A stretch of DNA of 64,000 bases. Source: an uncultured Lachnospiraceae bacterium. Lineage in GTDB: Bacteria > Bacillota > Clostridia > Lachnospirales > Lachnospiraceae. The first letter of the stretch is position 1. Each line of letters opens with the position of its first letter. Where the stretch lies: the NCBI GenBank assembly GCA_947305245.1, contig CAMZDG010000005.1:26891-90890 (forward strand), read 5' to 3'. The notes below the pieces were generated by a model. The model worked only from the letters and a program-made list of their open reading frames with translations, had not been told where the DNA came from and did no database searches. Made by a program: the position numbers and the translations under genes. Shown one piece after another: positions 2,313-48,788 of the stretch.

Positions 2313-2316
2313 AGCT

Positions 2317-3015: not shown

Positions 3016-3076
3016 TAGGGATCGAAGTTTTTGGAACAGGGAATCGTTAGAAACCCGCTAAGCAGGAGGGAATAGT

Positions 3077-16552: not shown

Positions 16553-17641
16553 ATGAAAAAGAGATTCATTTCATTCATGATCGCATGCATGATGACGACA
16601 TTGTTATGCGCATGCGAAACAAATACGCGGGAGGAAAGTACAATGACGGAAAACATTGCGACGGAAAGTAGTGAGCAGGAAGAAAATGTTGGAGGGGTAA
16701 GCGAGGAGGACAAGGGCTCGTTCGCGACCGGCATCGCGACGGAGGATAGTTCGGAAAACTCTTCCGCCACGGAAGAGACGAGTGCGGAAGAAGCATTTGT
16801 CCTGACGGACGAGATCGAGGAGCGTTGTCCCATTGCCTTTACGGCGACACGCAAGGACGTAACATACGGGGAGTATACTCACGGGACATATCAGTCGACG
16901 ACCTGCGGGATGGAGCGAGGGTACTGTATTCTTCTTCCGGCAGATTATAGCATGGAAAAGAAGTATCCCGTGCTGTATCTCCTGCACGGGATCTTTGGAA
17001 ATGAATATTCCTTCTCGGGCGATTCGAGCAATAAGATCAAGGAAATTGTGGGGAACATGGCCGCGGAGGGTCTGATCGAGGAGACGATCATCGTTTGTCC
17101 CAACATGTATGCGACCACAGATCCCAAGCAACAGCCGGGGTTTGATGCGGAGAGCTGTCTGCCGTATGATAATTTTATCAATGATCTGGTAACCGATCTG
17201 ATGCCGCATATCGAGAAGGAATACTCGGTCCTTACCGGAAGGGAGAATACCTATTTGGGCGGTTTCTCCATGGGCGGGCGTGAGACGATCTTTATCGCAC
17301 TGCAAAAGCCTGAGCTGTTCGGCTATGTGTGTGCGATCTCTGCGGCGCCCGGGATCGTGGCGACGACGGACAAGTTTATGACGCATCCGGGACAGCTTGC
17401 GGAGGACGAAGTGAAGTTCGCGGAGGATGCAACCGTTCCCAACGTATTTATCCTTTGCTGTGGTACCAGGGATTCCGTCGTGGGAACCTATCCCAAGTCC
17501 TATCATGAATTGCTTGAGGCAAATGGCACGGACCATATTTGGTATGAGATCACGGGAGCGGATCATGACAACAATGCGATCAAGAGCGGACTGTATAATC
17601 TGTTCAAGCAGATCGCATATGACAAGGCAACGGATAAGTAA
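16553..17641 (+). CDS. Lipoprotein alpha/beta-hydrolase esterase (CE1, XynZ-esterase-like)
   Basis: Lipobox LLCAC; acidic linker; KYPVLYLLHG, GFSMGG nucleophile, GADHD. Confidence 0.88.
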   Translation: MKKRFISFMIACMMTTLLCACETNTREESTMTENIATESSEQEENVGGVSEEDKGSFATGIATEDSSENSSATEETSAEEAFVLTDEIEERCPIAFTATRKDVTYGEYTHGTYQSTTCGMERGYCILLPADYSMEKKYPVLYLLHGIFGNEYSFSGDSSNKIKEIVGNMAAEGLIEETIIVCPNMYATTDPKQQPGFDAESCLPYDNFINDLVTDLMPHIEKEYSVLTGRENTYLGGFSMGGRETIFIALQKPELFGYVCAISAAPGIVATTDKFMTHPGQLAEDEVKFAEDATVPNVFILCCGTRDSVVGTYPKSYHELLEANGTDHIWYEITGADHDNNAIKSGLYNLFKQIAYDKATDK

Positions 17642-23292: not shown

Positions 23293-24249
23293 ATGGGAAG
23301 CGTAAATTATCAAAATGCGACCGCCGTGATCCGTGAAGTTTCCAAGGCTGTCACGGGAAAGGACGATTGCATCAGAAAGGCATTTGCCGCAGTGATCGCG
23401 GGGGGACATATATTGATCGAGGACGTGCCGGGCGTGGGAAAGACGACCCTGGCGCTCTCGCTTTCGCGCGCCATGAAGCTAAAGGGAAACCGCGTACAGT
23501 TCACGCCGGACGTCATGCCGTCGGACATTCTCGGGTTTTCCATGTATAAAAAGGAATTGGATTGCTTTGAGTATCATCCGGGCGCCATTGCCTGCAATCT
23601 GTTCCTTGCCGATGAGATCAACCGCACTTCGCCGAAGACGCAGTCTGCCCTTTTGGAAGTCATGGAGGAAGGCGCCTGGACGGTGGACGGCGTGACGAGA
23701 AAGGTGGAAGATCCCTTTATCGTGATCGCGACGCAGAACCCAAAGGGCAGCGCGGGAACGCAGCTTCTTCCCGATTCACAGCTGGACCGCTTTATGATCT
23801 GCATGAGTATGGGATATCCGGACTTAAAGGATGAGATCGCCATTGCAAAGGGGCGAAATAACGGTGTTTCCGTGGACAGCCTCCAGGAGGTGATCGACGC
23901 GCGGGGACTGATCGCCATCAAGGAGGAAGTATCCAACGTCTTTGTGCATAATCACGTGTACGCTTATATCGTGAAGCTGGTGCAGGCGACCAGGGAGAAT
24001 CCGTACGTGGAGCTTGGCATCAGTCCGAGAGGAACCATTGCGTGCAGCCGCATGGCCATGGCGTGGGCCTTTCTGCAGGGAAGGGATTATTGCATTCCGG
24101 AGGACGTGGAGAATGTATTTCGGGACGTGGCCACGCACCGCATCGTCATGAACACGAAGGCGAGGGTGGCGAAGATCCGCCGGGAGGACGTACTTACGGA
24201 GATCCTTGGCAGCGTGCGTCAGCCGGCTTCCTTCCTGGAAAGGAGCTAG
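23293..24249 (+). CDS. MoxR-family AAA+ ATPase
   Basis: EDVPGVGKTT, QFTPD..PSD, DEINR, ATQNP, QLDRF, GISPR. Confidence 0.95.
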   Translation: MGSVNYQNATAVIREVSKAVTGKDDCIRKAFAAVIAGGHILIEDVPGVGKTTLALSLSRAMKLKGNRVQFTPDVMPSDILGFSMYKKELDCFEYHPGAIACNLFLADEINRTSPKTQSALLEVMEEGAWTVDGVTRKVEDPFIVIATQNPKGSAGTQLLPDSQLDRFMICMSMGYPDLKDEIAIAKGRNNGVSVDSLQEVIDARGLIAIKEEVSNVFVHNHVYAYIVKLVQATRENPYVELGISPRGTIACSRMAMAWAFLQGRDYCIPEDVENVFRDVATHRIVMNTKARVAKIRREDVLTEILGSVRQPASFLERS

Positions 24250-24251
24250 AC

Positions 24252-25313
24252 GTGCTGGGCTTTGTTTGGGTGATACCTTTTGCGTTTTTGTTATTCTATC
24301 TGGCATTGATATTTGAAAGCACTGGAATTGCACTGCTGGGCTATGCCGCAGTGGCTTTTGCCGTGCTTTCTTTTCTTTCGCTCCTTTTTACGAATCGTCT
24401 GGTAAAAATACGGCTGGACGTCCCCGCGAGGGTGGCGGAAAAAGACCAGGTCTTTGGCCTTCGGATGGAGATCGAGGATCAATCTCCCCTGCCCGTGGGA
24501 AGGGTCAAGGCATATGTTTCCTACGGGGAGGACGCAGGGATGGAGCGGCAAAGGATCGTCCTTTCAGCGGAGGATCTACGAAGGGGCGAAAGCAGTGAGA
24601 CGAGAAGACTTTCGGTCAGCAGCTCGGGGTATTATGAGTTTCAGCTAAAGAGGTATCGGGTGTATGACGCCTTCGGCGTATTTTATCTTTCGAGAAAGGG
24701 AAAGAGCATCGCGCACGTCATGATCCTGCCAAAGCTGGAGGTGGTTCCCGTCAAGCTGGGCGAGGCCGTCAGGAATTTTTACGGGGAGACCGTGGATTAT
24801 GACGAGAATCAGTCGGGCGCAGATTCCAGCGAAACCTTTGGGATCCGGGAATTTCATGACGGGGATAAGCTTCAGAGGATCCATTGGAAGCTGAGTGCAA
24901 GGACGGAGGAGCTGATGGTCAAGGAGGATTCCCTTCCGAAATCCTGCGCCGTCGTGCTGTTCCTGCCGGAAGGGATCCTGAGCGAAAGTAAGAGTCTGGA
25001 TTATATGGCGTCCCTTTCTTTTACGCTGACGGATGAAAAATGTGCACATTACGTGGCATGGTTTTCCCAGAGCCGAAATGACGTGCTTCGCGCGCGGGTG
25101 GAGGACGAGGAGAGCTTTTACCTGGCGCTCACGACATATATGAAGGACTGCAGCGCAAAGCCCGTGGAAGACCGCGTTCTGAGATATAAGGAGAAATATA
25201 AGGGAGAGCAGTTCCTGCATTCCGTCAGCGCGAACAAGGAAGGGGAACTCTGGGTGGACGAAGAGAAGGTTGGCAAGATCGGGAGCTTTAGCGAGGAGCT
25301 GTTTTTAAGATAG
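24252..25313 (+). CDS. DUF58 domain protein, 353 aa
   Basis: IREFHDGD..RIHWKLSAR; GTG 24252 after AAGGAG; N-terminal TM pair. Confidence 0.88.
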   Translation: MLGFVWVIPFAFLLFYLALIFESTGIALLGYAAVAFAVLSFLSLLFTNRLVKIRLDVPARVAEKDQVFGLRMEIEDQSPLPVGRVKAYVSYGEDAGMERQRIVLSAEDLRRGESSETRRLSVSSSGYYEFQLKRYRVYDAFGVFYLSRKGKSIAHVMILPKLEVVPVKLGEAVRNFYGETVDYDENQSGADSSETFGIREFHDGDKLQRIHWKLSARTEELMVKEDSLPKSCAVVLFLPEGILSESKSLDYMASLSFTLTDEKCAHYVAWFSQSRNDVLRARVEDEESFYLALTTYMKDCSAKPVEDRVLRYKEKYKGEQFLHSVSANKEGELWVDEEKVGKIGSFSEELFLR

Positions 25314-25315
25314 AC

Positions 25316-27898
25316 ATGAAGAAGAGAAAGCTTGTAAATTGGGAAAAACCGCAGAAGAACCCAAGGATGGGTTGGAAGCATTGGTTTGCGGAAGCCGCGT
25401 GGGAATGCGCCGCGCTGCTTTTGCTGATCTTTGCTGCCGTTTCCATGCTTTCCAAATTGAACCCCAGGGACGGGGTTAGCGGTTCACATGCTTTCTGGAT
25501 GGTGCTTAGCGTGATCTTTGCGGTACTCCTTCGGGAGGGGGGGCTTTATGGGATCCTGTGCCTTTCCAAGGACGTAAAAAGGGAAACATTGATCTGGCTT
25601 CTTTGCAGGCTTATGCCCGTGCTTGTCGTGATCCCTTTGTTCCTTCGCGCGTGGAGCAGGCATGCGGAGGAGATCCGCGACGGCCTTCTTGCCGTCGCGG
25701 TGGACGTGATCACTGCTTATAACGGTGCATTTCATCGAAACATCGCCGTCAGCGGCGGAAACGAGGCGTGGATTTCGGCGGCCTTACAGTTTACGATCCT
25801 TGGGGTGTTCTTTTTGCTCCTTTTGAGCCCCGGCATCGGAAAGCGAAAATGGCAGTTTGTCCTACTGCCCGCAGCGACGACGGTTCTATTGATGTACCTG
25901 GGACTTGCGCCGGAATGGAAAGAGATCCTGTGGATGCTTGCCGGAATCCTTATGGTGCACTGCAGCCGAAGAGCGGGCGGGATCAGACCCGGCAAGGCTG
26001 TGGCCGTAGCGCTTTGCCTGGCGGGGATCTCCTTGCTTGGGCTTGCGATGGGAGCCTCCGCCGCAAGGCTTTTGGAGCGCTCTGAAGAGACCAAGCTGTT
26101 TGAGAAAGAGCTGGAGACAAACCTCAAGAATCTTTCGACTTTTTCCTTTTCCTTTGGCAGGGCGACTGTGTCGAACAAAGCGCCAAAGTACCGTGACAAG
26201 AAGATCATGACGGTACGGATGGATCAGAAACCGCAGACCAATCTGTATTTTCAGGAGGTTGGCGCCGCCGAGTATGACCATGGGGAATGGACCTCTCCTG
26301 GCAATGAGTTCTCTGCTTTTTGCGCGGAAAACGGCTTTGACGAGAAGTGGGCGGCGGAGCTCCTGTCCAGTTCCCTGTTTCAATCCATCAATCTCGAGCT
26401 GTATCAATATGAGCTGGAGTGGGCTTATTACGGCGAAAGTCAGGAAAAAGATTATGCAGTGACGCAGTATCAGGTGAAGTATCACCGTTTTAGGAATCCG
26501 TTCATGCTTCTTCCCTATGGAGTGAATACGGAAAAAACGGAAGGCATCCGCTTTGACGGAAAAGCCATCGCGCGAAAGGATCCAGGCAGGAAAACCATTT
26601 CTTTTGAGGGCTGGAACGGCAATGAATTGGAGCAAAATTCGCTGATCTATGACTGGTCCGGAAGAAATATGGAGCGCGGATCCAAAGAGAAAGCCTTCTG
26701 GGAGAAATACAATGAATTCGCGCAAGAACACTATCTGTCCTATCCCGATTACATAAAGACGCTGGATTCTTATCCCTATTATCGGGCCGTCATGGATGCC
26801 GAGAATAGCTCCTACAAGCGCGTGGAATATGTGATCCTGGACAAGGATGCGATGGATTCGCTTTGGGAGTTTGTGGATGAAAACGGCGCGCTGCAGGGAT
26901 TTGATGCAGACTGGCTCAATGAAATTATGGTTCCGGTCGAGTATAACGAGATGTCAAATACCGGGCGGGTTCAGGTGACGCTGAATCTGAGCGAGGTCAT
27001 GACGGGGACAAATTCCATTTACAGCTGGGCCTTGGATGAGCTCGGGCCCGACCAGGATCCAGTGGAATATTTCCTGAGAAACAGGAGAAAGGGATATTGC
27101 ACGCATTATGCCTCGGCAGCAGTTTTCCTCCTTCGCAGCGTGGGCATCCCCGCGAGATTTGCTTCCGGATATATGTTAAAGCCTTATGCCTTTGTCGAGC
27201 AGTCGGACGGGAGCTATGCGGCGGAGGTGATCGACCGGAACGGGCATGCCTGGGTGGAGATTTATTTGAACGACATCGGCTGGATCCCCGTTGAAATGAC
27301 GCCAGGCTATGGAGCGGATCAGACGACCATGCCGACGGATAAGGACATGGAGGAGCTTCGGCGCGCGCAGGAGAAAACGCAGGAGGCACAGGCGACGCCT
27401 TCGCCAACGCCGGAAGTGACGCCCTCGCCGACGCCTGAGGCGACGAACAAGCCAGAGGAGACGACGGCGCCCAAGGAGACCAAGGCACCGAAAAATCCGG
27501 AAGGGAAGGAAGGAAAGCACTCAGAAGGGACGGATACAAAAGTCTATGCCTGGATCGCGGCCGCAGTCTTGGCGCTTGCCATCCTATTTGTCATTCTTGA
27601 GCGCAGGAGAGCCGCGAAAAAAAGGCTCCAGATGGCACTGAAGCGGAAGTATTATAAAGCGGCGGTGGTGATGATGAACCGGCGCGTCTACCGAAAATTG
27701 CGGAAAAAAAGCAAGATCAGGAAGAGAAATCTCACGGACAGGGATTTCGAAGAGATGCTCATTTCGGCGTTTGGAGAAGAAAAAAGGAGTAGGATCGCAG
27801 AGTATATGCGCGTGGTGAAGGCGGCGGCCTTTTCCGACGGAAAGCTTTCCAAAGAGGACTGCAAGCTTGTCTGGCGGATTTATAAAACGGTCACCTGA
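25316..27898 (+). CDS. Membrane transglutaminase-like (TgpA-type) protein
   Basis: Multi-TM N-terminus; GYCTHYASA, GHAWVEIY, VEMTPG; Pro/Thr linker and C-terminal TM. Confidence 0.9.
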   Translation: MKKRKLVNWEKPQKNPRMGWKHWFAEAAWECAALLLLIFAAVSMLSKLNPRDGVSGSHAFWMVLSVIFAVLLREGGLYGILCLSKDVKRETLIWLLCRLMPVLVVIPLFLRAWSRHAEEIRDGLLAVAVDVITAYNGAFHRNIAVSGGNEAWISAALQFTILGVFFLLLLSPGIGKRKWQFVLLPAATTVLLMYLGLAPEWKEILWMLAGILMVHCSRRAGGIRPGKAVAVALCLAGISLLGLAMGASAARLLERSEETKLFEKELETNLKNLSTFSFSFGRATVSNKAPKYRDKKIMTVRMDQKPQTNLYFQEVGAAEYDHGEWTSPGNEFSAFCAENGFDEKWAAELLSSSLFQSINLELYQYELEWAYYGESQEKDYAVTQYQVKYHRFRNPFMLLPYGVNTEKTEGIRFDGKAIARKDPGRKTISFEGWNGNELEQNSLIYDWSGRNMERGSKEKAFWEKYNEFAQEHYLSYPDYIKTLDSYPYYRAVMDAENSSYKRVEYVILDKDAMDSLWEFVDENGALQGFDADWLNEIMVPVEYNEMSNTGRVQVTLNLSEVMTGTNSIYSWALDELGPDQDPVEYFLRNRRKGYCTHYASAAVFLLRSVGIPARFASGYMLKPYAFVEQSDGSYAAEVIDRNGHAWVEIYLNDIGWIPVEMTPGYGADQTTMPTDKDMEELRRAQEKTQEAQATPSPTPEVTPSPTPEATNKPEETTAPKETKAPKNPEGKEGKHSEGTDTKVYAWIAAAVLALAILFVILERRRAAKKRLQMALKRKYYKAAVVMMNRRVYRKLRKKSKIRKRNLTDRDFEEMLISAFGEEKRSRIAEYMRVVKAAAFSDGKLSKEDCKLVWRIYKTVT

Positions 27899-27938
27899 GG
27901 CAAGTTTCCGCGCAGGGCGGGCATTTGACGACGGTGCA

Positions 27939-27967
27939 TGGACATTTTCGAAAGTCGATGTTATAAT
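27939..27967 (+). promoter_or_regulatory. Near-consensus sigma70 promoter of the ExbBD-like operon
   Basis: TGGACA-N17-TATAAT with extended -10 TG. Confidence 0.75.
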
Positions 27968-28027
27968 AGAATCAGGAATCTGTTTCTGAAAGAAAAGTTT
28001 CGATTGATTCTATGGGAGGTTACGGCT

Positions 28028-28564
28028 ATGGTTGGTTTTCTGGCAAAGTACATGAACTGGATCATTATTCTCGGCGGCTTGATCGTGCTCTTTTTCCTGA
28101 TCAAGAATTATATCAAGCTGTATAACAAAAAGAGCTTTATTCATGACGCCATGAACAGGAAGAATAAAGAATCCTATCTCAACGCCGCAACGGGTGAGGT
28201 AGAGGAGAGGGAGATCTCTGAGGCGGTGACGCCGGACACGATCCGTGATTATGAGAAATCCTTTAATGAGGTGGTCTCCGGATATAATGCCTGCACGCAG
28301 TTTATTCCGCTGTTCCCGCTTCTTGGTATTCTTGGCACCGTTTCCGGTCTCGTGGAACAGCTGAAGGCGCAGAACCTTGATGAGATGTTCAAGTCTTTGG
28401 ACGTGGCGCTGACCTCCACCTTCTGGGGCCTGATCGTTACCATTATCCTGAAGATCTTTGCCACCGTGTCCGCAAAGCTGATCGAGGATACGGAGATTGT
28501 TCTGGATGACTATGACAAGAAGTTTGATAACTCCGTGAAGCTCGGAAATATCACTTCCGAGTAA
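28028..28564 (+). CDS. MotA/TolQ/ExbB-family ion-channel subunit, 178 aa
   Basis: FPLLGILGTVSGL and ALTSTFWGL TM motifs; 3 TM; ATG 28028 after GGGAGGT. Confidence 0.85.
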   Translation: MVGFLAKYMNWIIILGGLIVLFFLIKNYIKLYNKKSFIHDAMNRKNKESYLNAATGEVEEREISEAVTPDTIRDYEKSFNEVVSGYNACTQFIPLFPLLGILGTVSGLVEQLKAQNLDEMFKSLDVALTSTFWGLIVTIILKIFATVSAKLIEDTEIVLDDYDKKFDNSVKLGNITSE

Positions 28565-28608
28565 GTAACGAAACAAGGCATAACATCGCTATTCATTTTG
28601 GAGGGAAT

Positions 28609-29160
28609 ATGAAAAAGAGGAGACATCGGGCGAAAGCAGATATCCTGATCGACCTGACTTCCTTACTCGACGTCATATTCATTGTACTGCTCGTCGTGAT
28701 CGGACGGCAGATGAATCTGACGGAGAGGCAGGCGGAGCAGGTGCAGGCCGCCGTGGCAGTGGAAGAAGCCATGGCCAAGGCGCAGGAAGCTCAGGCGGAA
28801 TATGAACTGTACATGGATCAGGTGGACACGGCGGAGACGATCGGACAATATGTCTGCGTGATCTCTGTGTATGCCTATTATGATGAGGCGGACATTACGG
28901 AACGGCACATAAAGGTCTTTCGGAAGGGGGATGCGGATCCCTTTGCCACCATTGACCTCAAGGGGGAGAACGTAGAAACGCCTTTAAATCAGCTGAAATC
29001 CGTGATCGAAGAGTATGCAACGAAGAATGACGATCTTCCCGTGATACTGACCTTGAACGAGAATGACGAGAAGATCCTGTATCGAGATGAGAAAGCCATC
29101 AGGGGTATTTTTCAGGATTTAGCAGATATGGACACATTACCTAATGTTTTTTTGAAGTAG
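28609..29160 (+). CDS. ExbD/TolR-like single-TM partner
   Basis: IDLTSLLDVIFIVLL (conserved TM Asp), coiled-coil stalk, extracellular domain; no OmpA-like motif. Confidence 0.75.
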   Translation: MKKRRHRAKADILIDLTSLLDVIFIVLLVVIGRQMNLTERQAEQVQAAVAVEEAMAKAQEAQAEYELYMDQVDTAETIGQYVCVISVYAYYDEADITERHIKVFRKGDADPFATIDLKGENVETPLNQLKSVIEEYATKNDDLPVILTLNENDEKILYRDEKAIRGIFQDLADMDTLPNVFLK

Positions 29161-29171
29161 GAGAAGGGCTT

Positions 29172-29783
29172 ATGATAGCAATCCTGTTAATGGTGGTGGG
29201 AGGGATCCTCGCCATCGCCGGTTTTCTGGGACTAATGGCACTCATGATCGAACCGGTGCACACGATGTACATGGTCATCTTCAAGCGAAAGGATGACTAT
29301 GTCTACTATGAGACCAAGCCCGGAAAAGCCCTGCTGCAGAGAAATAAAAAGAGCCTTGGGGGTTCCTGTCTGTTTTTCATGATCGTCGGGATCCTTCTGT
29401 TCGCGTTGGGCTTTTTCCTGAAATTTAGTCCGAGAGGCCTGGATTCCCTGTTCTCCAAGCAGGTGGACAGCGGGACTGGCGTCGGGGATGCGGAGTCCGA
29501 CAAGGGCATCAAAGAGGCGGTGAACGCTGCCGGAAATTACGTGGATGAGGCAGGGGAAGAGTACTATGATTATCTGATCATTCACCAGACTTCCATTCAG
29601 TATCGGGATCAAAAGAAGATGACGATCGGGGAATTCGAGGAATTCTTAGAGGGCCTTAGGAAGCAAAACGGAAAGAGAACCTTTTATCTGGTAGATGACT
29701 TCGCCTCCGCGCAGACCTTTCATCGGGTGGAGCAGCTGATCGAAGCGGGCGGCATGGACTATCTGGGAGGAGGCGGCAAATGA
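29172..29783 (+). CDS. Hypothetical 2-TM protein with an extracellular domain
   Basis: Two hydrophobic helices; C-terminal FYLVDDFA domain; operonic. Confidence 0.65.
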   Translation: MIAILLMVVGGILAIAGFLGLMALMIEPVHTMYMVIFKRKDDYVYYETKPGKALLQRNKKSLGGSCLFFMIVGILLFALGFFLKFSPRGLDSLFSKQVDSGTGVGDAESDKGIKEAVNAAGNYVDEAGEEYYDYLIIHQTSIQYRDQKKMTIGEFEEFLEGLRKQNGKRTFYLVDDFASAQTFHRVEQLIEAGGMDYLGGGGK

Positions 29784-30211
29784 CAAGAAAAACGAAAAGA
29801 ATCCTTCTTGTACTGAGCGTTCTTTGCCTGACCTTTCTGGCCGGATTTGCAGTAAAGACGGTGCAGCTCCTCAACGAGAATCCGCCTCTGATCGACTTAA
29901 ATACCGCCATTGTGGAAGCAAAGTTTGGAAAGAACGGCAATGAAGCCCATGCGGATGGAGAGGAACCGGACAAGAACTCCGAGAAACCGGGGAAAACCAT
30001 TAAGATCAGGGTTTGCGGCGAAGCGGTCTGGATGGAAGAGCACAGATATTTCTCATTGGACAATCTGAACACAAGGATCATCAGCAATTATAAGGAGGGC
30101 GACGAGATCCTGCTGATCGATGATTATGCGGAAGCACATTTTTACAGGGAAGTCCTTGCCATTCTTGAAAAGCTGAATGCGGAGAGTGGCTTCGCATACG
30201 CGGCGGATTAG
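29780..30211 (+). CDS. Hypothetical single-TM protein, C-domain paralogous to the previous gene
   Basis: ATGA overlap; ILLIDDYAEAHFYREV versus FYLVDDFASAQTFHRV. Confidence 0.65.
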   Translation: MTRKTKRILLVLSVLCLTFLAGFAVKTVQLLNENPPLIDLNTAIVEAKFGKNGNEAHADGEEPDKNSEKPGKTIKIRVCGEAVWMEEHRYFSLDNLNTRIISNYKEGDEILLIDDYAEAHFYREVLAILEKLNAESGFAYAAD

Positions 30212-30222
30212 GAGGTGGAAGC

Positions 30223-31197
30223 ATGAAGAGTAAGAGAAAAATCGCTTTCCTTATGTGCCTCCTGATGATGGCAACCTTTCTCTTTGCCGGCTTCTTAAAG
30301 CCCAAGGAGATGGCCCTGGATGCAGAGAAGGTGATCGTTTATAAAAATGAGTCCGCAGAGAATTTCCTGATCCTGATCTATTCCAACCCCGCAGCGGCGA
30401 AGGAGCGTTATAAGGATCAGTATTTCATGATGTATGGAAAGGTTCGGTCCAAGGACAGATCCAACAAGCAGTTAAAGCTTGCCATGGTTTCCGGTCTCTC
30501 GAAAGAGACGCTGCAGTGCAATGCCAGTCAGGAGGACGTGATCGAATCCGTGTCGGAGCTTCGGGCAGGGGACGTCGTCAGAGTCTATGGAAAGCTGAGC
30601 TTAAGCCTGCTTGGAAAATGGAGCATGTCCATCGATAAGATTGAGGCGACCTCCGAGAAGACGGTCTCCCGAACGGCGTATTCCGTGATCGGCGGAAAGA
30701 CCATAGATCAGACGCAGACGCAGGAAAGAACCCTAAACCAGGGGCGGATCCATCTTTATATCCCGAAGGAATGGGTCTCCGTGGAGTATGACATGATCGA
30801 TTCCGGTCTCGGGACCATGGAGGGCTTCCAATACCGCTTAAATGAGATCAATCATCAGTCCGTTCAACCGGAGAGCCTCTTTGTCTGCTATTTTGACAAT
30901 GAAAAATTCCTGCTCCACTCCAGCGATAAAACGGAGACGGAAGGCATCGAGAGAGCCATCGTGAACAATATCATCAAGATGGATCCCGGGAAGCCGGAAA
31001 AAAAGAAGGTCACCCATTACGGAGCGGAGTACCATTATTATCAGGAAGCATATAAAACGGCGCTCGGTCAAAACTATCACGCAGAGTTTATCTTCCAGCC
31101 GGTTGGCACGCAGGGATTCATCGTCTACTTGTATGTTTATCTGGAAAAGAGCCATTTGGACGACGTCATGATGTTTCTTCGGATGGTGGAGCAGTAA
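30223..31197 (+). CDS. Exported/anchored protein: OB-fold (tRNA_anti-like) + PsbP-like domain
   Basis: N-terminal hydrophobic helix; YSNPAAAKERYKDQYFMMYGKV; IHLYIPKEW. Confidence 0.55.
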   Translation: MKSKRKIAFLMCLLMMATFLFAGFLKPKEMALDAEKVIVYKNESAENFLILIYSNPAAAKERYKDQYFMMYGKVRSKDRSNKQLKLAMVSGLSKETLQCNASQEDVIESVSELRAGDVVRVYGKLSLSLLGKWSMSIDKIEATSEKTVSRTAYSVIGGKTIDQTQTQERTLNQGRIHLYIPKEWVSVEYDMIDSGLGTMEGFQYRLNEINHQSVQPESLFVCYFDNEKFLLHSSDKTETEGIERAIVNNIIKMDPGKPEKKKVTHYGAEYHYYQEAYKTALGQNYHAEFIFQPVGTQGFIVYLYVYLEKSHLDDVMMFLRMVEQ

Positions 31198-31213
31198 CAT
31201 AAAACCTTCGGGA

Positions 31214-31239
31214 GGCTGTTGCAAAGGCAGCAGCCTTTC
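31214..31239 (+). terminator. Probable terminator
   Basis: GGCTGTTGC-AAAG-GCAGCAGCC followed by TTT. Confidence 0.55.
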
Positions 31240-31260
31240 CTAGTAAATGAAAGGAAAAAA

Positions 31261-33222
31261 ATGAAACAGAAAATATTTGGTTTACTTCTAGCGCTGATGT
31301 TAGCCGTCAGCGCTACGGCTTGTACGGATACGGGTACGCTTGAGACCTCTAAGGGGGAGTCCGTCAGCAAGGAAAGCCAGACGGGGAAGGAATCTGACGA
31401 CGCGGGAGCCAGTCAGGAATCCAATGGCACAGAAACGGTGCAGGGATCCGAAATGAGTCTGCCGGTCGCCAAGATCTCGTCGGAAGATAATAGGTATATC
31501 TTCCGAAGCTATTATACAAATCATTATACGATCACTGACAATCACTGCAAAATCATCGCAGAGTATGATTTTATGGCCCTTTGCAGAAAACTATATGACG
31601 CCGGAAAGGGTAATTTCGAATACGCGTCAATCCGCGCCGTCGGGGAGGACGTCCTGTACGTGGAGAAGCAGGATCAGGTTGGAGACGCCTATGTCAGACA
31701 GGCGTATGCCATTGATCCAAAGACGCTGGATACGTTTTTGCTTTATACCCCGGAAGAGGGCTGGTGGTGGTCTGAAACAGATGTTTATCAGGGAAAGGTT
31801 TACGTAACGGCATTCGCATATGATGCAATGAGGAGCAAAGAGCTCGTCTTTGTCAAGGATCCGAATGGTTTTACGTATCACGAGGAAAAGAATCCGAACG
31901 AAGCACTGATCGAAAACTTAAACGGATATAGGCCCATTCCATTTTCTCCCAGTTTGAACGCGCAGTGCAGCATCACTCGCGCGATGGATGAAGTAGGTTT
32001 TGTCATCGCAGAAAAGGATAATAAATACTATTCCTTGATCACGAGGGACGGGAAGGTCATCGAAGTTCCGGAGCTTCCCCAAGGGCCACTTCGCATTTCG
32101 GCCTACGACAATAAGGGCATCGTATATTATGCCAACGATGAGTCCGGACTTTACGGAATGTACTGCCTGAACCTGGAGACCAGACAGAGCAGACCCATTG
32201 TCAAGGATGATGAGAGATATGAAGCGTTCCTTGCCTATGCGGACGGGAAAATATACTATTACACGCAGTCAGAAGGGTTCATTCACGTAACGAATACGGT
32301 TTGGCAATATGACGTTACCACGGGAAGTGAAAAGAAGCTTTATGCGATGGAATCGACGCCTGGCATAGCCTATATCGATCCCGGCGTAGAGGAGTTTCGG
32401 CTGATCGACGGCGAAATCTATTTCGTCGGGCTCAATGGAACTACGGACGTGTGGCTTCGCGCTACGCCAAATGGAGAGACGGTAAGCTTATGGAGTACGG
32501 GGATCTATTGGTCAGACCTCAGTGAAAATCTTTTCGTCCGGGGCACCGTGATCTATGATACATATTCTTTCAATTGTCCATACTGTGGTATTCCGCTGGA
32601 GAAGTATTACGGCGAGGCTTTCCAGGTGAAGGAGCATCTGTCCGCCTATGCGGATAAGATCAATGAGCAGCTTCGCGCGGATCTGCAGCAGAAGATCAAC
32701 GACTATCAGAAAAACGAAACGCAGGAGTGGACGGACGAAGAGTGTGAGGAACACCTGGAGATGCCGATCATCTATTGTGTGACCGTGGAAGAGTACGTAG
32801 ATGATGCGTACATATTAAGTGATCAATATCTGGCGGTGGAATATAGCGGTTATTGGTATGGCGGCGGCGCGCATGGCATGCCATATATGTCACAGGACTT
32901 GTTTGACCTAAAGACTGGAGAGAGAAAGACGTTCAAGGATTTTTATGACGGTTCGAACGAAAGCTTTAAGAAGCTTGCCGCTGAATATACCAAGAAGGAT
33001 TTCTTAAGCTATCCGGAGGGCTCTTCTCCTTATTTTGCGGAGGACGCGGAGACGGTTTATCAGCAGGCTTATGATGCGGCGTCCATTGAATACTCCCATA
33101 TTTCATTCCAGACCTATGGCATTTACCTGATCTATGATCCCTATGAGATGGGGCCGTATGCATCCGGATTCATTGAGATCTACATTCCTTATGAAGAACT
33201 GTTGGGAAGATATTCTTTATAA
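31261..33222 (+). CDS. Large lipoprotein: beta-propeller-like N-terminal part and RsiV/DUF3298-like C-terminal domain, 653 aa
   Basis: Lipobox ATAC; YWYGGGAHG..FDLKTG; YDPYEMGPYASG. Confidence 0.7.
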   Translation: MKQKIFGLLLALMLAVSATACTDTGTLETSKGESVSKESQTGKESDDAGASQESNGTETVQGSEMSLPVAKISSEDNRYIFRSYYTNHYTITDNHCKIIAEYDFMALCRKLYDAGKGNFEYASIRAVGEDVLYVEKQDQVGDAYVRQAYAIDPKTLDTFLLYTPEEGWWWSETDVYQGKVYVTAFAYDAMRSKELVFVKDPNGFTYHEEKNPNEALIENLNGYRPIPFSPSLNAQCSITRAMDEVGFVIAEKDNKYYSLITRDGKVIEVPELPQGPLRISAYDNKGIVYYANDESGLYGMYCLNLETRQSRPIVKDDERYEAFLAYADGKIYYYTQSEGFIHVTNTVWQYDVTTGSEKKLYAMESTPGIAYIDPGVEEFRLIDGEIYFVGLNGTTDVWLRATPNGETVSLWSTGIYWSDLSENLFVRGTVIYDTYSFNCPYCGIPLEKYYGEAFQVKEHLSAYADKINEQLRADLQQKINDYQKNETQEWTDEECEEHLEMPIIYCVTVEEYVDDAYILSDQYLAVEYSGYWYGGGAHGMPYMSQDLFDLKTGERKTFKDFYDGSNESFKKLAAEYTKKDFLSYPEGSSPYFAEDAETVYQQAYDAASIEYSHISFQTYGIYLIYDPYEMGPYASGFIEIYIPYEELLGRYSL

Positions 33223-33250
33223 GATAAATATGTTTTAGGAGGGTTATCAG

Positions 33251-34333
33251 ATGAAAAAGATTTGGCCATTGGACACTGCAGTATCATTCGATCCCTATTT
33301 CGGGGAGCCGAACCGCGACGGAGATCAGGGATATGAGATCCTTCCCGACGGGAAGGTGAAATTCCGCATCAAGGCACCCTTTGCGAAGGAAGTTGCCATC
33401 GATCAGTTTGGGACAGTCACGAAGCTGGAGAAGGTGACGGAGGAGGAATGGGAAGGCGCCGTGGATCTGGGAAGAGGCTTTAAGTATTTCTTCTTAAAGA
33501 TCGACGGAAATGAGGTTTTGAATCCCTATCTGCCCATCGGTTATGGGTGCTGCCGCCCCATGAACTTTGTGGACGTGCCCGTGCCCGGAGAGGAGGACTG
33601 GGACGTACTTCCCGGCATTCCGCACGGTGCAGTGACCAGAAGATATTTCCCTTCTTCCGTGAGCGGAAAGCTCGAGATCTGCATGATCTATACGCCTGCA
33701 AATTATGATCCCGCGAAGAAATATCCCGTGCTTTACCTGCAGCATGGCTACGGTGAGAATGAGACGGGCTGGATCTATCAGGGCCATGCGGGAAGGATTG
33801 CGGACAAGCTGATCTATGAGGGGAAGATGACGGAGATGATCATCGTCATGGGAAATGGCATGACCCAGTGCGACGATCCCGCGAAGAGATTTGGCCTCTT
33901 TATCGAGGTGTTCCTAAAGGATCTGATCCCGTTCATTGAGAGCACCTACAACGTATATACGGACAAGTGGCATCGCGCCATGGCAGGCCTTAGCATGGGC
34001 AGCTATCAGACCAGCATGATCACCATGACGAATCCTGACATGTTCAGCCATGTCGGCGTGTTCAGCGGCTTTATGAGCTTCCCTCGCCCGGATGGTTCGA
34101 AGGAGGCACACCTGGAGATCCTCGAGGATGCAGAGAAATTCAACTCCAGCTTCAAGGTATTCTACCGCGCGATGGGCACGGAGGATAATTACTTTGACAG
34201 CTTCGCAAGGGATGATGAAATGTTAAAGGGAAAGCCCCTGAACATTACCAGAAAGACTTTCCCCGGCGGCCACGACTGGAGCGTGTGGAGAAGATGCATC
34301 CACGACTTCCTGCCGATGATCTTTCAAGACTGA
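33251..34333 (+). CDS. Cytoplasmic CE1-type esterase with an N-terminal Ig-like/CBM48-like domain
   Basis: KYPVLYLQHG, AGLSMG, GGHDWSVWR; no signal peptide. Confidence 0.88.
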   Translation: MKKIWPLDTAVSFDPYFGEPNRDGDQGYEILPDGKVKFRIKAPFAKEVAIDQFGTVTKLEKVTEEEWEGAVDLGRGFKYFFLKIDGNEVLNPYLPIGYGCCRPMNFVDVPVPGEEDWDVLPGIPHGAVTRRYFPSSVSGKLEICMIYTPANYDPAKKYPVLYLQHGYGENETGWIYQGHAGRIADKLIYEGKMTEMIIVMGNGMTQCDDPAKRFGLFIEVFLKDLIPFIESTYNVYTDKWHRAMAGLSMGSYQTSMITMTNPDMFSHVGVFSGFMSFPRPDGSKEAHLEILEDAEKFNSSFKVFYRAMGTEDNYFDSFARDDEMLKGKPLNITRKTFPGGHDWSVWRRCIHDFLPMIFQD

Positions 34334-36124
34334 TTATTCGAACTGACTCGCGTATAATTTGTAATAGAAACCACGGCGGGTCATGAGGTCGTCGTGGGTA
34401 CCCTGTTCCACGACGTCGCCGGCGTTCACGACGAGGATCTGGTCGGCGTTCTGGATGGTACTTAATCTGTGGGCGATCACGAAGCTTGTTTTCCCTTTCA
34501 TCAAGCTTCGGATCGCCTTTTGTACTTGGCGCTCCGTGTTGGTGTCGACGTTGCTGGTCGCCTCGTCGAGGATCAGCATATTGGTATTATAAAGCATGGC
34601 GCGGGCGATGGTGAGGAGCTGCTTCTGGCCCTTGGAAATATTGCCGCCGTCCTCATAAATGATGGTGTTATAGCCTTTGGGAAGGCGCAGTACGTAGTCG
34701 TGGATCTTCGCTGCTTTGGCGGCGGCCACGACTTCTTCTTTGGTCGCATTTTCCTTGCCATAGGCGATGTTGTCGAAGATGGTGCCCTGAAAGAGCCAGG
34801 TGTCCTGCAGCACCATGGCGTAATTCTTTCGAAGGCTCTCCATGGTATAGGAGCGATATTCCTTGTCATCCACGGTGATCTCACCGGAATTTACGTCATA
34901 AAACCGCATGAGCAGGTTAATGATGGTGGTCTTTCCGGCGCCGGTGGGGCCTACGATGGCGATGGTCTGTCCAGGCTTCGCCTCGAAGTTTAAGTCCTTC
35001 AGGATCGTCTTTTCCGGCACGTAACCAAAGGCGACGTGCTTTGCGCCGACCTCACCCTGACAGTTTTCGAGCGTTTCCGCGCCATAGAGGTCTGCGGCCT
35101 CCTCGGGCTGATCTAACAGGTGGAAGACTCTCTCGCCGGCCGCGAGCGCGCTGAAGATCTCGTTGATGATGTTGGAGATCTCGTTGATGGGGCCGGAGAA
35201 CTTACGGCTGTAGAGGATAAAGCTGGAGATCTGCTCCAGGCCGACGATCGCCTTCATGTACAGCACGGCGCCGCCCATGCCGATGGCGGCAAGGCCGAGG
35301 TTCGAGATCATGCCGATGGTGGGGCCCATTTTCATGCCCATGCCGTCCGCGTTCCGATACGCCTCCGCGGCATTTCGATTGATCTCGCTGAAGCGCTCGG
35401 ACATCTTGTCCTCGCAGGCGTAGGCCAGGATGGTCTTTTGGCCCGTGAACATTTCCTCGGCGTACCCATTCATGACGCCGTAGGCCGCGCTCCGCTTGGA
35501 ATACAAGGGGCGCGTGATCTTTCCCATCCGCTTGGTGTACCAGATGGACAGCGGGATGGTGAAGATCATGCAGAGCACCAGGGGAACCGAAATGGTGCAC
35601 ATGATGACGAAGCTTCCGACCACGGTGATGGTGCTCGTAAGGATTTGGATCACGTCCGTGGAGAGGCAGGTGGAGACCACGTCGATGTCGTAGGAGACGC
35701 GGCTGATGATGTCGCCGGCCTGATTTCGGTCAAAGTAACTCACGGGGAGCTTCATGAGCTTCTCGAACACGTCCTGACGCAGGTTTTGCGCGACGCGCTT
35801 GCCCACGCGGGTCATGCAGACGCTCACGGTAAAGCCGAGGATATTCGAGCAGACGTACGCGAGGAGCATCAGGATCGTATAATGCAGCACTTGATCCATG
35901 TCCACCTGTCCGATGCCCTTCTTATATCCTTCCTCGGCCACGCCGATGGCCTTTCCGGCAAAGCGGGGGCCAAGAAGGTTCCCCACGTTGCTGACAATGG
36001 CACAAAGGAATAGGAGCGCAATGATCCATTTATATTTTTCCAGATAGCGAAGGATCCTAAGAAGCGTCCCCTTCGCGTCCTTCGGTTTTTCTTTTTTTCC
36101 GCCTCGATCTCCAGGTCCCGGCAT
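34334..36124 (-). CDS. ABC exporter (TMD+NBD), consensus-site subunit
   Basis: GPTGAGKTT, ISKGQKQL, ILDEATS, IAHRLS. Confidence 0.95.
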   Translation of the reverse strand: MPGPGDRGGKKEKPKDAKGTLLRILRYLEKYKWIIALLFLCAIVSNVGNLLGPRFAGKAIGVAEEGYKKGIGQVDMDQVLHYTILMLLAYVCSNILGFTVSVCMTRVGKRVAQNLRQDVFEKLMKLPVSYFDRNQAGDIISRVSYDIDVVSTCLSTDVIQILTSTITVVGSFVIMCTISVPLVLCMIFTIPLSIWYTKRMGKITRPLYSKRSAAYGVMNGYAEEMFTGQKTILAYACEDKMSERFSEINRNAAEAYRNADGMGMKMGPTIGMISNLGLAAIGMGGAVLYMKAIVGLEQISSFILYSRKFSGPINEISNIINEIFSALAAGERVFHLLDQPEEAADLYGAETLENCQGEVGAKHVAFGYVPEKTILKDLNFEAKPGQTIAIVGPTGAGKTTIINLLMRFYDVNSGEITVDDKEYRSYTMESLRKNYAMVLQDTWLFQGTIFDNIAYGKENATKEEVVAAAKAAKIHDYVLRLPKGYNTIIYEDGGNISKGQKQLLTIARAMLYNTNMLILDEATSNVDTNTERQVQKAIRSLMKGKTSFVIAHRLSTIQNADQILVVNAGDVVEQGTHDDLMTRRGFYYKLYASQFE

Positions 36125-48299: not shown

Positions 48300-48788
48300 A
48301 TGGATAAGAACACCGCGGAAAAACTTTATGAAGCTTTTTACATGAAGGTGTTTTCTTACGTAATGACGCTCACAAGAGATCAGAACGACGCCATGGAGAT
48401 CACACAGGAAACCTTTTTCCGGGCCATCTCCACGGAGCGGGAGTTCCGAGGCGAAAGCGAAAGTTTTACTTGGCTATGTGCCATCGCGAAGAACCTCTTT
48501 ATTGACGAGAAAAGGCGAAATGCCAGATTTGACGACGTACCTCTTGATGAGCAGCCAGACACGCAGAAAAGCATTGAGAAGAGCCTGATGGACGCAGAGA
48601 CGTCCATACGGATCCACCGAATCCTTCATGCGTTGGAGGAACCCTATAAGGAAGTCTTCCAGCTTCGCATCTTCGGAGAATTATCCTTCAAGGAGATAGG
48701 TTCTATCTTCGGAAAGACCGAAACCTGGGCCCGGGTAACGTTCCACCGTGCAAGAATTATGATCAAAGAAAGGATGGACGAACAATGA
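48300..48788 (+). CDS. ECF RNA polymerase sigma factor
   Basis: ITQETF, FTWLCAIAKN, LSFKEIG, WARVTFHRAR. Confidence 0.93.
   Translation: MDKNTAEKLYEAFYMKVFSYVMTLTRDQNDAMEITQETFFRAISTEREFRGESESFTWLCAIAKNLFIDEKRRNARFDDVPLDEQPDTQKSIEKSLMDAETSIRIHRILHALEEPYKEVFQLRIFGELSFKEIGSIFGKTETWARVTFHRARIMIKERMDEQ

What the first reader, a model, noticed from the sequence alone, without database searches (positions are those of the whole stretch)
27939..31197. Orphan ExbB/ExbD-like ion-driven motor operon in a monoderm bacterium
Seen: a dedicated near-consensus promoter drives five tightly linked genes: a 3-TM MotA/TolQ/ExbB subunit; an ExbD/TolR-like subunit with the TM Asp and a coiled-coil stalk; two membrane proteins with paralogous extracellular LxDD(F/Y)A domains; and an exported OB-fold + PsbP-like protein. 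Known: such 5:2 motors power flagella (MotAB), outer-membrane uptake (ExbBD-TonB), Tol-Pal, gliding (AglRQS) and Zorya. Here there is no TonB/TolA, no flagellar gene, no OmpA peptidoglycan-binding domain and no long ZorA tail, and the host appears to have no outer membrane. Inference: an undescribed ion-gradient-powered envelope machine in which the two DD-motif proteins act as TonB-like transducers. This is the best candidate for a new system in the window.
Basis: partly seen in the sequence, partly recalled or inferred. Interest (0 to 1): 0.78.

Follow-up and report, generated by a model that had tools for sequence, protein, structure and literature searches.

The report
Exb/Tol-type ion motor operon, Lachnospiraceae
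A five-gene operon conserved in rumen and gut Lachnospiraceae, bacteria without an outer membrane, encodes a proton-channel motor of the kind that powers outer-membrane transport in Gram-negative bacteria, joined to three surface-exposed partner proteins that I found described nowhere; what it drives is unknown.

Summary
Behind a conserved extended -10 promoter (27939-27967) lie five tightly packed genes, and they occur in the same order in 62 of 79 species-level genomes, almost all Lachnospiraceae. The flanking genes differ between genomes, so this is a self-contained module.

- g1 (28028-28564, 178 aa, not 208) is a three-helix ExbB/TolQ-type channel that keeps both channel threonines.
- g2 is a divergent ExbD/TolR-type subunit with the invariant membrane Asp and a long helical stalk.
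- g3 and g4 are paralogues. Their "DD(F/Y)A" domain is not TonB-like: its best structural matches are the periplasmic domains of TolR and ExbD. The operon therefore encodes three ExbD-fold proteins, and only g2 carries the channel Asp.
- g5 is membrane-anchored, with an outside OB fold and a second alpha/beta domain. The "PsbP-like" label for that domain could not be tested.

All five genes are under purifying selection. The cassette has no TonB, TolA, Pal, OmpA-type domain or ZorA tail, has no relative in the viral contigs scanned, and its varied flanking genes do not resemble a defence island. I found no published description.

Verdict: a real, undescribed variant of the Exb/Tol motor family in bacteria without an outer membrane. 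Output and stoichiometry remain inferred.

The parts
27939..27967 (+). Promoter-like site: TGGACA, 17-nt spacer, TG-extended TATAAT
   Evidence: Scores 11/12, the best site in 27400-34600. The extended -10 element is conserved upstream of g1 in relatives whose upstream genes differ. This is a motif match only; transcription was not shown.
28014..28019 (+). Ribosome-binding site GGGAGG, 8 nt before the g1 start codon
   Evidence: Read directly from the sequence. A GGGAGG or GGAGG lines up at the same place in the relatives, though the alignment places it slightly differently in two of them.
28028..28564 (+). g1: 178-aa three-helix ExbB/TolQ-type channel subunit (A subunit of the motor)
   Evidence: Pfam MotA_ExbB: E 5e-10, 39.6 bits against a cut-off of 22.9. 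Profile comparison with E. coli proteins: ExbB E 1.2e-6 over 140 columns, TolQ 1.6e-4, MotA 2e-3. GILGT(104)V and ST(131)FWG align with the ExbB segments GLFGTVWG and LLATAIGL and are invariant in the family. Hydropathy gives three helices with the N terminus outside. 712 homologues were found, nearly all from Lachnospiraceae.
28609..29160 (+). g2: 183-aa ExbD/TolR-type subunit (B subunit) with N terminus inside, one membrane helix carrying invariant Asp21, an Ala/Glu/Gln-rich stalk and a C-terminal head with an invariant LYRD motif
   Evidence: Pfam ExbD in 29 of 32 family members, best E 1.8e-6; the window protein scores 7e-4, below threshold. The membrane helix ILIDLTSLLDVIF aligns with TolR (E 1.7e-4) and ExbD (E 4.8e-4), placing D21 opposite the membrane-helix Asp of ExbD; there is no match to MotB. 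That the stalk is a coiled coil is inferred from composition only.
29172..29783 (+). g3: 203-aa protein with two membrane helices, a Lys/Arg-rich cytoplasmic loop and an outside C-terminal ExbD/TolR-like domain (LVDDFA motif); no membrane Asp
   Evidence: Its C-terminal domain is paralogous to that of g4 (hhalign 99.3%, E 4e-20). Alignment, topology. No Pfam family matches. It occupies a conserved position in 62 loci.
29780..30211 (+). g4: 143-aa protein with N terminus inside, one membrane helix, a conserved motif next to the membrane (LLNxxxPLIDLxxAI), a flexible linker and a C-terminal ExbD/TolR-like domain (LIDDYAEA motif)
   Evidence: AlphaFold model with pLDDT above 90 for residues 71-143. 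Top solved-structure matches are TolR 5by4 and ExbD 8pek, 8vgd, 8p9r and 2pfu: probability 0.89-1.0, and for the ExbD crystal structures TM-score about 0.7 and rmsd 2.8 A over 75 columns, with weak E-values of 0.03-0.09. Sequence profiles do not reach ExbD significantly, although the alignment is in register.
30223..31197 (+). g5: 324-aa protein with an N-terminal anchor, an outside OB fold (about residues 39-142) and an alpha/beta domain (about 150-324) of unassigned family
   Evidence: Pfam tRNA_anti-like: E 1.2e-5, 25.4 bits against a cut-off of 23.5. AlphaFold mean pLDDT 93, pTM 0.85. The OB fold matches the anticodon-binding domain of lysyl-tRNA synthetase and phage 'host cell surface-exposed lipoprotein' models (E 4e-10, rmsd 2.1 A over 106 columns). 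The C-terminal domain has no PDB sequence match and only one weak PsbP hit among 32 members. The family is small: 138 clusters at E <= 1e-30 among 1.84 billion representatives.
31261..34333 (+). g6 (lipoprotein with PdaC and DUF3298 domains, 31261-33222) and g7 (esterase, 33251-34333): probably co-transcribed here, but not part of the conserved module
   Evidence: Pfam hits. The lipobox SATAC is read from the translation. No terminator-like site lies between g5 and g6. g6 is found downstream of g5 in six of the closest relatives and g7 in four of them (L001-L008).

Best explanation
The operon encodes a membrane motor of the ExbBD/TolQR type, driven by the proton-motive force and adapted to a cell envelope without an outer membrane.

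Proposed mechanism:
1. g1 forms the channel ring. By analogy this is a pentamer.
2. g2 forms the central Asp-bearing axle, by analogy a dimer. Protons passing the g2 Asp and the g1 threonines drive rotation or a power stroke.
3. The long g2 stalk lifts its ExbD-like heads into the wall zone.
4. g3 and g4 are anchored beside the motor and carry further ExbD/TolR-fold heads. Such heads are known to dimerise, to capture a partner strand by beta-strand addition (ExbD with the TonB D-box, per PMC10907165) or, from memory of the TolR literature, to bind peptidoglycan. Here they would couple the motor to an outside target, either directly or through g5.
5. g5's OB fold and alpha/beta domain would bind a wall polymer or another ligand.

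Shown: gene content, conservation, folds, key residues and topology.
Inferred: the 5:2 assembly, who contacts whom, and the final output. Candidate outputs are wall remodelling or maintenance, handling of a surface polymer or cargo, and sensing of envelope damage.
For: - The five-gene order is conserved in 62 of 79 species-level loci while the flanks are unrelated housekeeping genes.
- Purifying selection acts on all five genes: dN/dS 0.03-0.16 where it could be computed, with dS near saturation.
- g1 belongs to MotA_ExbB above threshold and aligns with ExbB across the cytoplasmic loop and the last two helices; both channel threonines are invariant.
- g2 has the ExbD/TolR membrane-helix signature with an invariant Asp.
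- The g4 head, and by paralogy the g3 head, has the ExbD/TolR fold.
- Topology places all the heads and g5 outside the membrane.
- A dedicated promoter motif is conserved.
- The ExbD dimer capturing the TonB D-box, a beta-strand just after the anchor, is documented in PMC10907165.
Against: - No assembly or stoichiometry prediction could be run.
- The fold match of g4 to ExbD/TolR ranks first but has weak E-values (0.03-0.09). Sequence profiles do not confirm it.
- The window's g2 is below the Pfam ExbD threshold.
- By profile search of solved structures, g1 scores slightly better against MotA of Firmicutes (5e-5) than against ExbB (3e-3), so its subfamily origin is unsettled.
- No target, ligand or phenotype is known, and no expression data were obtained.
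Confidence: 0.65

Rival explanations
1. It is a Zorya-like sentinel. The motor and its outside heads would sense damage to the wall, for example phage entry, and signal inward to trigger defence or a stress response.
For: - Weak PADLOC and NCBIfam hits to ZorA and ZorB (E 0.005-0.06).
- The outside components evolve much faster than g1 (dN 0.14-0.23 against 0.034), as expected for surface proteins under pressure.
- In one subclade a cytoplasmic AIM24-family gene is coupled directly upstream of g1 and could be an inward partner.
- The g5 OB fold resembles phage-encoded surface lipoproteins.
Against: - g1 has only about 28 residues after its last helix, with no ZorA-type tail.
- There is no peptidoglycan-binding OmpA-type domain.
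- No nuclease, ZorC/D-like or other effector gene is present in the window cassette. These features define Zorya according to PMC11946911.
- The flanking genes that were scanned are housekeeping genes, not a defence island.
- No relative was found in the viral contigs.
- The cassette looks lineage-conserved rather than patchy.
Confidence: 0.12
2. It is an alternative or auxiliary flagellar or motility stator derived from MotAB of Firmicutes.
For: By profile search of solved structures, the best matches to g1 are MotA of Clostridium sporogenes and other MotA chains that I take to be from Bacillus (E 5e-5), including a stretch of the cytoplasmic loop, VTPDTIR against EPETIRE. The best NCBIfam hit is MotP, but it is very weak (3.5e-4, 19.7 bits against a cut-off of 394).
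Against: - g1 has three membrane helices and a cytoplasmic loop of about 60 residues, not four helices and the large torque-generating domain of MotA.
- g2 aligns with TolR and ExbD but not with MotB, and no OmpA-type domain was found in it.
- No flagellar gene was found in the window ORFs scanned, or among the flanking ORFs sampled in related loci.
- Against E. coli references g1 matches ExbB far better than MotA (1.2e-6 over 140 columns against 2e-3 over 45).
Confidence: 0.05
3. It is a decaying remnant of a Ton or Tol system from an ancestor with two membranes, or from horizontal transfer, and has no present function.
For: PMC12204202 reports occasional Ton components in bacteria with one membrane and considers them probably non-functional.
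Against: - All five genes are intact in more than 60 species, with conserved order, overlapping or tightly spaced starts and a conserved promoter.
- dN is much lower than dS in every gene, and the catalytic Asp and Thr residues are invariant.
- Three of the five proteins have no counterpart in Ton or Tol systems.
Confidence: 0.03

Closest known systems
ExbB-ExbD-TonB (Ton) system of Gram-negative bacteria
   Same: - g1 has the three-helix ExbB topology and aligns with E. coli ExbB over 140 columns, including both channel threonines.
- g2 has the ExbD-type helix with the conserved Asp.
- The g4 head, and by paralogy the g3 head, has the fold of the ExbD periplasmic domain.
- g4 has the general layout of TonB: anchor, motif next to the membrane, flexible linker, head.
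   Different: - There is no TonB: no TonB C-terminal domain was found and the g4 helix has no His of the SHLS kind.
- There is no TonB-dependent receptor, and the host family has no outer membrane.
- g1 is much shorter (178 against 244 aa).
- g2 carries a long helical stalk.
- There are three ExbD-fold proteins, two of them without the Asp.
- An OB-fold protein, g5, is an obligate partner.
TolQ-TolR-TolA-TolB-Pal (Tol-Pal) system
   Same: g1 aligns with TolQ (E 1.6e-4). The g2 helix aligns best with TolR (E 1.7e-4). TolR 5by4 is the top fold match of the g4 head.
   Different: No TolA, TolB or Pal was found in the cassette or among the window ORFs scanned. There is no outer membrane to stabilise.
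MotAB/PomAB flagellar stator units
   Same: Same Pfam superfamily (PF01618). MotA of Firmicutes is the best solved-structure sequence match to the g1 profile. The Asp-bearing B subunit is a shared principle.
   Different: g1 has three helices rather than four and no large cytoplasmic torque domain. g2 has no OmpA-type wall-binding domain and no match to MotB. There is no flagellar context.
Zorya (ZorAB plus ZorC/D and others) anti-phage system
   Same: A motor of the same superfamily used outside motility and transport, and one that also occurs in Gram-positive bacteria. Hits to ZorA and ZorB models are weak.
   Different: No long ZorA tail, no peptidoglycan-binding domain on the B subunit and no soluble effector genes (features from PMC11946911). 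The flanking genes scanned do not form a defence island.
GldLM/PorLM gliding and type IX secretion motor of Bacteroidetes
   Same: As I recall from the literature on that system, the B subunit there extends a long dimeric shaft away from the membrane to drive a distant target. The g2 stalk suggests a modest version of this.
   Different: No sequence relation was detected. GldM has four periplasmic domains. It belongs to a different phylum with an outer membrane.

Membership tests
MotA/TolQ/ExbB channel superfamily (PF01618) | Match to the family model above the curated threshold, covering the last two membrane helices | tested here: met
   g1 scores 39.6 bits against a cut-off of 22.9, E 5e-10. 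All listed homologues carry PF01618.
MotA/TolQ/ExbB channel superfamily (PF01618) | Conserved polar channel residues on the two helices, aligned with the ExbB segments GLFGTVWG and LLATAIGL (which I recall as holding Thr148 and Thr181) | tested here: met
   T104 and T131 are invariant in 14 diverse members and align with those ExbB segments.
ExbB/TolQ subfamily (as opposed to MotA) | Three membrane helices with the N terminus outside and a condensed cytoplasmic domain | tested here: met
   Hydropathy and the positive-inside rule give three helices and a 60-residue loop. The hhalign match to ExbB (1.2e-6) is stronger than to TolQ and MotA. However, HMMER against solved structures ranks MotA of Firmicutes first, so the evolutionary origin stays open.
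ExbD/TolR (PF02472) | Match to the family model | tested here: inconclusive
   The window's g2 scores 20.0 bits against a cut-off of 25.4, E 7e-4. 29 of 32 orthologues match at E < 0.1, best 1.8e-6.
ExbD/TolR (PF02472) | Single N-terminal membrane helix with the essential Asp | tested here: met
   D21 is invariant in 32 sequences. It aligns with the Asp in the membrane helix of ExbD and of TolR.
5:2 rotary motor (A5B2 assembly) | A pentamer of the A subunit around a dimer of the B subunit | not testable with these tools
   Only single-chain structure prediction was available.
TonB/TolA force transducers | TonB-type C-terminal domain | tested here: not met
   g3 and g4 have no Pfam hit. The g4 head is ExbD/TolR-like in fold.
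TonB/TolA force transducers | SHLS-type motif with a conserved His in the membrane anchor (named in PMC10907165; that it includes a His is my recollection) | tested here: not met
   The g4 and g3 helices contain no His, and no residue in the anchor is conserved.
TonB/TolA force transducers | Anchor, then a short conserved strand next to the membrane, then an extended linker, then a head | tested here: inconclusive
   g4 has this layout and a nearly invariant (L/F)I(D/E)L motif about 10 residues after the helix. The motif does not follow the published D-box pattern, and the low-confidence model makes residues 40-48, just after it, helical.
Zorya | ZorA with a long cytoplasmic coiled-coil tail, ZorB with a peptidoglycan-binding domain, and soluble effectors | tested here: not met
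   g1 is 178 aa with a C-terminal tail of about 28 residues. PADLOC gives only E 0.005-0.018. No effector gene is present.
MotAB stator | Four-helix MotA with a large cytoplasmic domain; MotB with an OmpA-like domain | tested here: not met
PsbP/Mog1p-like fold (g5 C-terminal domain) | Structural or profile match to PsbP-like domains | tested here: inconclusive
   The fold-search output is filled by OB-fold matches. There is no PDB sequence match. One of 32 members has a weak PsbP hit (E 0.007). The order of secondary-structure elements is compatible, but that is no test.

The most novel reading that the evidence does not exclude
This is a previously undescribed envelope machine, driven by the proton-motive force, in bacteria with a single membrane. 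An ExbB/ExbD-type rotor drives a transmission made of three different ExbD-fold proteins and a surface OB-fold protein. It would do mechanical work in or on the thick cell wall, such as moving or remodelling a wall polymer or importing a large substrate, or it would report wall damage. It would be the first functional Exb/Tol-class motor outside bacteria with two membranes.
Probability: 0.5. Interest if true: 0.8.

Novelty: new variant of a known kind. Interest (0 to 1): 0.62.

Why it matters
Motors of this superfamily are understood in flagella, Ton, Tol, gliding and Zorya. Reviews state that the role of ExbB-family proteins in Gram-positive bacteria remains to be tested (PMC9389320). One study treats Ton components in bacteria with one membrane as probably non-functional (PMC12204202).

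This cassette contradicts that view in three ways:
- It is intact and under purifying selection.
- It keeps the channel residues.
- It has its own set of partners, so it should do something that needs energy outside the membrane of a cell that has no outer membrane.

It occurs in cultured strains (Butyrivibrio sp. INlla16 and Lachnospiraceae bacterium A4), which makes the question experimentally approachable. The use of ExbD-fold heads on separate anchor proteins would also broaden the known ways of coupling such motors to their targets.

Tried and rejected
- Profile searches of the g3, g4 and g5 C-terminal domain alignments against solved-structure sequences gave nothing meaningful.
- Profile comparison of g4 with E. 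coli ExbD and TolR gave in-register but non-significant alignments. The ExbD-fold claim therefore rests on the structure model.
- The fold search with the whole g5 model was swamped by lysyl-tRNA synthetase OB-fold matches, so the C-terminal domain could not be assigned. The viral library matched only the OB fold.
- I looked for extra conserved neighbours. Only an AIM24 gene in one subclade turned up. All other flanks are unrelated, so the upstream MoxR-DUF58-transglutaminase operon and the downstream lipoprotein and esterase are not part of the module.
- The scan of viral contigs found no relative.
- The search for RNA data found only one run of unknown type, stored as contigs, which says nothing about transcription.
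- dS is at or near saturation, and in several comparisons it could not be computed. The dN/dS values are therefore rough.
- Literature searches found no description of this cassette.


Full report
**What is in the sequence**

Between the stop codon of a membrane transglutaminase gene (27898) and a convergent ABC-transporter gene (34334) lies a run of + strand genes. The first five are the finding:

| gene | coordinates |
|---|---|
| g1 | 28028-28564 |
| g2 | 28609-29160 |
| g3 | 29172-29783 |
| g4 | 29780-30211 |
| g5 | 30223-31197 |

Gaps are 44, 11, -4 and 11 nt. The listed ORF for g1 begins at 27938. However, homologues are 178-184 aa and align from MVGFLAKY, and a GGGAGG lies 8 nt before ATG 28028. 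The gene is therefore 178 aa, and 27939-27967 is non-coding.

That stretch holds the best promoter-like site of the region: TGGACA, 17 nt, TG-extended TATAAT, scoring 11/12. An extended -10 element with an upstream TTGTAA/TTGTCA-type hexamer lines up in several relatives whose upstream genes differ. This supports a dedicated promoter, although transcription itself was not shown.

No terminator-like site follows g5. In this genome the transcript probably continues into g6, a lipoprotein with PdaC and DUF3298 domains starting at ATG 31261, and g7, an esterase.

**Is it more than chance?**

A scan of one genome per species found at least 298 loci encoding a g1 relative. The best 79 were fetched, nearly all Lachnospiraceae from rumen and gut. 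They include the cultured strains Butyrivibrio sp. INlla16 and Lachnospiraceae bacterium A4.

- BLAST and iterated HMM searches on the ORFs of these loci show g1-g2-g3-g4-g5 in the same order and strand in 62 loci.
- The most divergent loci, labelled Erysipelotrichaceae, Ruminococcus, Oscillospiraceae, Clostridia/Clostridiales and a few Lachnospiraceae, keep g1, g2 and one or two g3/g4-type genes but no detectable g5, where enough downstream sequence is held.
- g6, g7 and the upstream MoxR-DUF58-transglutaminase genes accompany the cassette only in the closest relatives.
- Elsewhere the flanks are unrelated housekeeping genes, such as FtsK, a dynamin-like GTPase, a GGDEF-EAL protein, aldose epimerase, xanthine-dehydrogenase-like proteins and an EamA transporter.
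- The only extra recurrent neighbour is an AIM24-family gene. It abuts or overlaps the start of g1 in most of the 25 loci of one subclade.

Pairwise comparisons with close relatives give dN far below dS for all five genes, with ratios of 0.03-0.16 where computable. dS is near saturation, so these numbers are rough. g1 is much more conserved (dN 0.034 to L001) than g2-g5 (0.14-0.23).

**The motor core**

g1:
- It matches Pfam MotA_ExbB above threshold.
- A profile of 14 diverse members aligns with E. coli ExbB over 140 columns (probability 91%, E 1.2e-6). The match is weaker to TolQ (1.6e-4) and weakest to MotA (2e-3 over 45 columns).
- The invariant GILGT104V and ST131FWG align with the ExbB segments GLFGTVWG and LLATAIGL. 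From memory, these contain the channel threonines Thr148 and Thr181.
- Hydropathy and charge give three helices with the N terminus outside, a 60-residue cytoplasmic loop and a 28-residue cytoplasmic tail. This is the ExbB/TolQ layout in a reduced form.
- A HMMER profile search of solved structures ranks MotA of Firmicutes slightly ahead of ExbB (5e-5 against 3e-3), with a short similarity in the loop. Superfamily membership is therefore firm, but the subfamily origin is open.

g2:
- It has N terminus inside and one helix, ILIDLTSLLDVIFIVL, with invariant D21.
- This is followed by an Ala/Glu/Gln-rich segment of variable length and a C-terminal head with an invariant LYRD motif.
- 29 of 32 orthologues match Pfam ExbD (best 1.8e-6). 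The window protein itself is just below threshold.
- The helix aligns with TolR (1.7e-4) and ExbD (4.8e-4), with D21 opposite the membrane-helix Asp of each. There is no match to MotB.

**The three partners**

- g3 and g4 have no Pfam family, and all database relatives are "hypothetical".
- Their C-terminal domains are paralogous (hhalign 99.3%, E 4e-20).
- An AlphaFold model of g4 built on 44 sequences is confident for residues 71-143 (pLDDT above 90). The element order is strand-strand-strand-helix-strand-helix-strand.
- Its best solved-structure matches are TolR (5by4) and the ExbD periplasmic domain (8pek, 8vgd, 2pfu, 8p9r, 8vgc): probability 0.89-1.0, and for the ExbD crystal structures TM-score about 0.7 and rmsd 2.8 A over 75 columns. 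E-values are only 0.03-0.09, as expected for a 70-residue domain.
- Sequence profiles do not confirm this. The g4 profile does align in register with E. coli ExbD, LIDDYAEAHFYREVLAILEK opposite FRADKTVDYETLMKVMDTLHQ, without significance.
- I therefore read the "DD(F/Y)A" domain as an ExbD/TolR-like head, with moderate confidence. It is not a TonB-like domain.
- Neither g3 (two helices around a Lys/Arg-rich loop) nor g4 (one helix) has an acidic residue in the membrane. They cannot replace g2 in the ion path.
- g4 has a nearly invariant motif about 10 residues after its helix, LLNxxxP(L/F)IDLxxA(I/V), followed by a low-confidence and often Pro/Thr-rich linker. In TonB a short strand in the same position, the D-box, is captured by the ExbD dimer (PMC10907165). 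That the g4 motif plays such a role is only a hypothesis.
- g5 models very well (pLDDT 93, pTM 0.85): an N-terminal helix, an OB fold and an alpha/beta domain.
- The OB fold passes the Pfam tRNA_anti-like threshold. It resembles the OB fold of lysyl-tRNA synthetase and OB folds in phage-encoded "host cell surface-exposed lipoproteins" (E 4e-10).
- The second g5 domain has no assignable family. "PsbP-like" remains untested.
- The g5 family is small and uniform: 138 clusters at E <= 1e-30 among 1.84 billion representatives, nearly all 310-350 aa.

**Host and context**

The nearest relatives are Lachnospiraceae and Acetatifactor assemblies. These belong to Clostridia, Bacillota. That this family has a single membrane is established knowledge rather than something tested here. 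DNA runs holding the sequence are bovine and other gut metagenomes.

Pfam scans of the long ORFs across the 64-kb window found no TonB, TolA, Pal, outer-membrane or flagellar gene. They found typical Gram-positive content instead: a LysM wall protein, an ECF sigma and anti-sigma pair, a GH10 xylanase and ABC transporters. PADLOC gave only weak ZorA and ZorB hits. No relative exists in the viral contig collection.

**How it most likely works**

By homology, g1 and g2 form an ion-driven ring-and-axle complex. The channel residues are intact, so ion flow is likely.

The novelty lies on the outside. The g2 stalk should raise its heads several nanometres above the membrane. Two further anchored proteins present the same kind of head, and a fifth protein offers an OB fold and another domain.

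ExbD/TolR heads are documented to dimerise and to capture partner strands (PMC10907165). From memory of the TolR literature, they can also bind peptidoglycan after remodelling. Either of two arrangements is possible:
- g2 is fixed to the wall, and the g1 ring turns against g3, g4 and g5.
- g2 turns and pulls on g3, g4 and g5.

I commit to a motor that transmits energy from the proton-motive force to the wall zone, with confidence about 0.65. The specific output is unknown. Rivals, with their probabilities, are a Zorya-like damage sensor (0.12), a motility stator (0.05) and a dead remnant (0.03).

**Comparison and novelty**

The core is a member of the MotA/ExbB/TolQ and ExbD/TolR families. The system as a whole fails the defining features of Ton, Tol-Pal, MotAB and Zorya (see the membership table).

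Reviews note that ExbB-family proteins in Gram-positive bacteria are untested (PMC9389320). A large "generic ion transporter" clade contains proteins of unknown function (PMC12505986). One study regards Ton components in bacteria with one membrane as probably non-functional (PMC12204202). I found no description of this cassette.

I rate it a new variant of a known kind, with interest 0.62.

Noticed in passing
L041-L068 and L075, directly upstream of g1 (e.g. L044:7105-7905): In 25 loci of one subclade an AIM24-family gene (PF01987, E 1.8e-36) precedes g1, abutting or overlapping its start in most of them. It may be a cytoplasmic partner of the motor. It is absent from the window's clade.
   Followed up: partly
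window 28028-31197 compared with L001, L003, L005, L006 and L008: The channel subunit g1 is far more conserved (96% identity, dN 0.034 to L001) than the four outside-facing proteins (69-79% identity, dN 0.14-0.23). This pattern is typical of surface-exposed components.
   Followed up: partly
window 31261-33222: g6 is a lipoprotein (lipobox SATAC) with PdaC and DUF3298 domains. As I recall, this domain pair also occurs in the lysozyme-sensing anti-sigma factor RsiV. The ORF list starts it at TTG 31219, but ATG 31261 gives a proper signal peptide.
   Followed up: no
window 23293-27898: A three-gene MoxR AAA ATPase, DUF58 and large membrane transglutaminase operon lies immediately upstream. It is linked to the cassette only in the closest relatives.
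   Followed up: partly
window 48300-50679: A three-gene unit: an ECF sigma factor, a zf-HC2 anti-sigma factor and a DUF4097 'toastrack' protein.
   Followed up: no
window 1449-4963: Genes for a VTC domain protein, a DUF4956 protein and a Cthe_2159 carbohydrate-binding protein lie in a row. Function not examined.
   Followed up: no
window 29092-29171 and 30291: A contig of run X4, about 98-99% identical across the stretch laid (25000-33694), replaces 78 nt at the end of g2 and the g2-g3 junction with 68 other letters. It also lacks 6 nt near the start of g5. This points to strain-level variation at the g2 C terminus.
   Followed up: no
window 59423-63106: A 1227-aa surface protein with DUF11, MBG and C-terminal LysM domains, consistent with a Gram-positive wall.
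   Followed up: no
window 16553-17641 and 33251-34333: Two esterase genes of about 360 aa from the same Pfam family (PF00756) lie in the window, one of them directly after g6. A related esterase also lies upstream of the cassette in L002.
   Followed up: no
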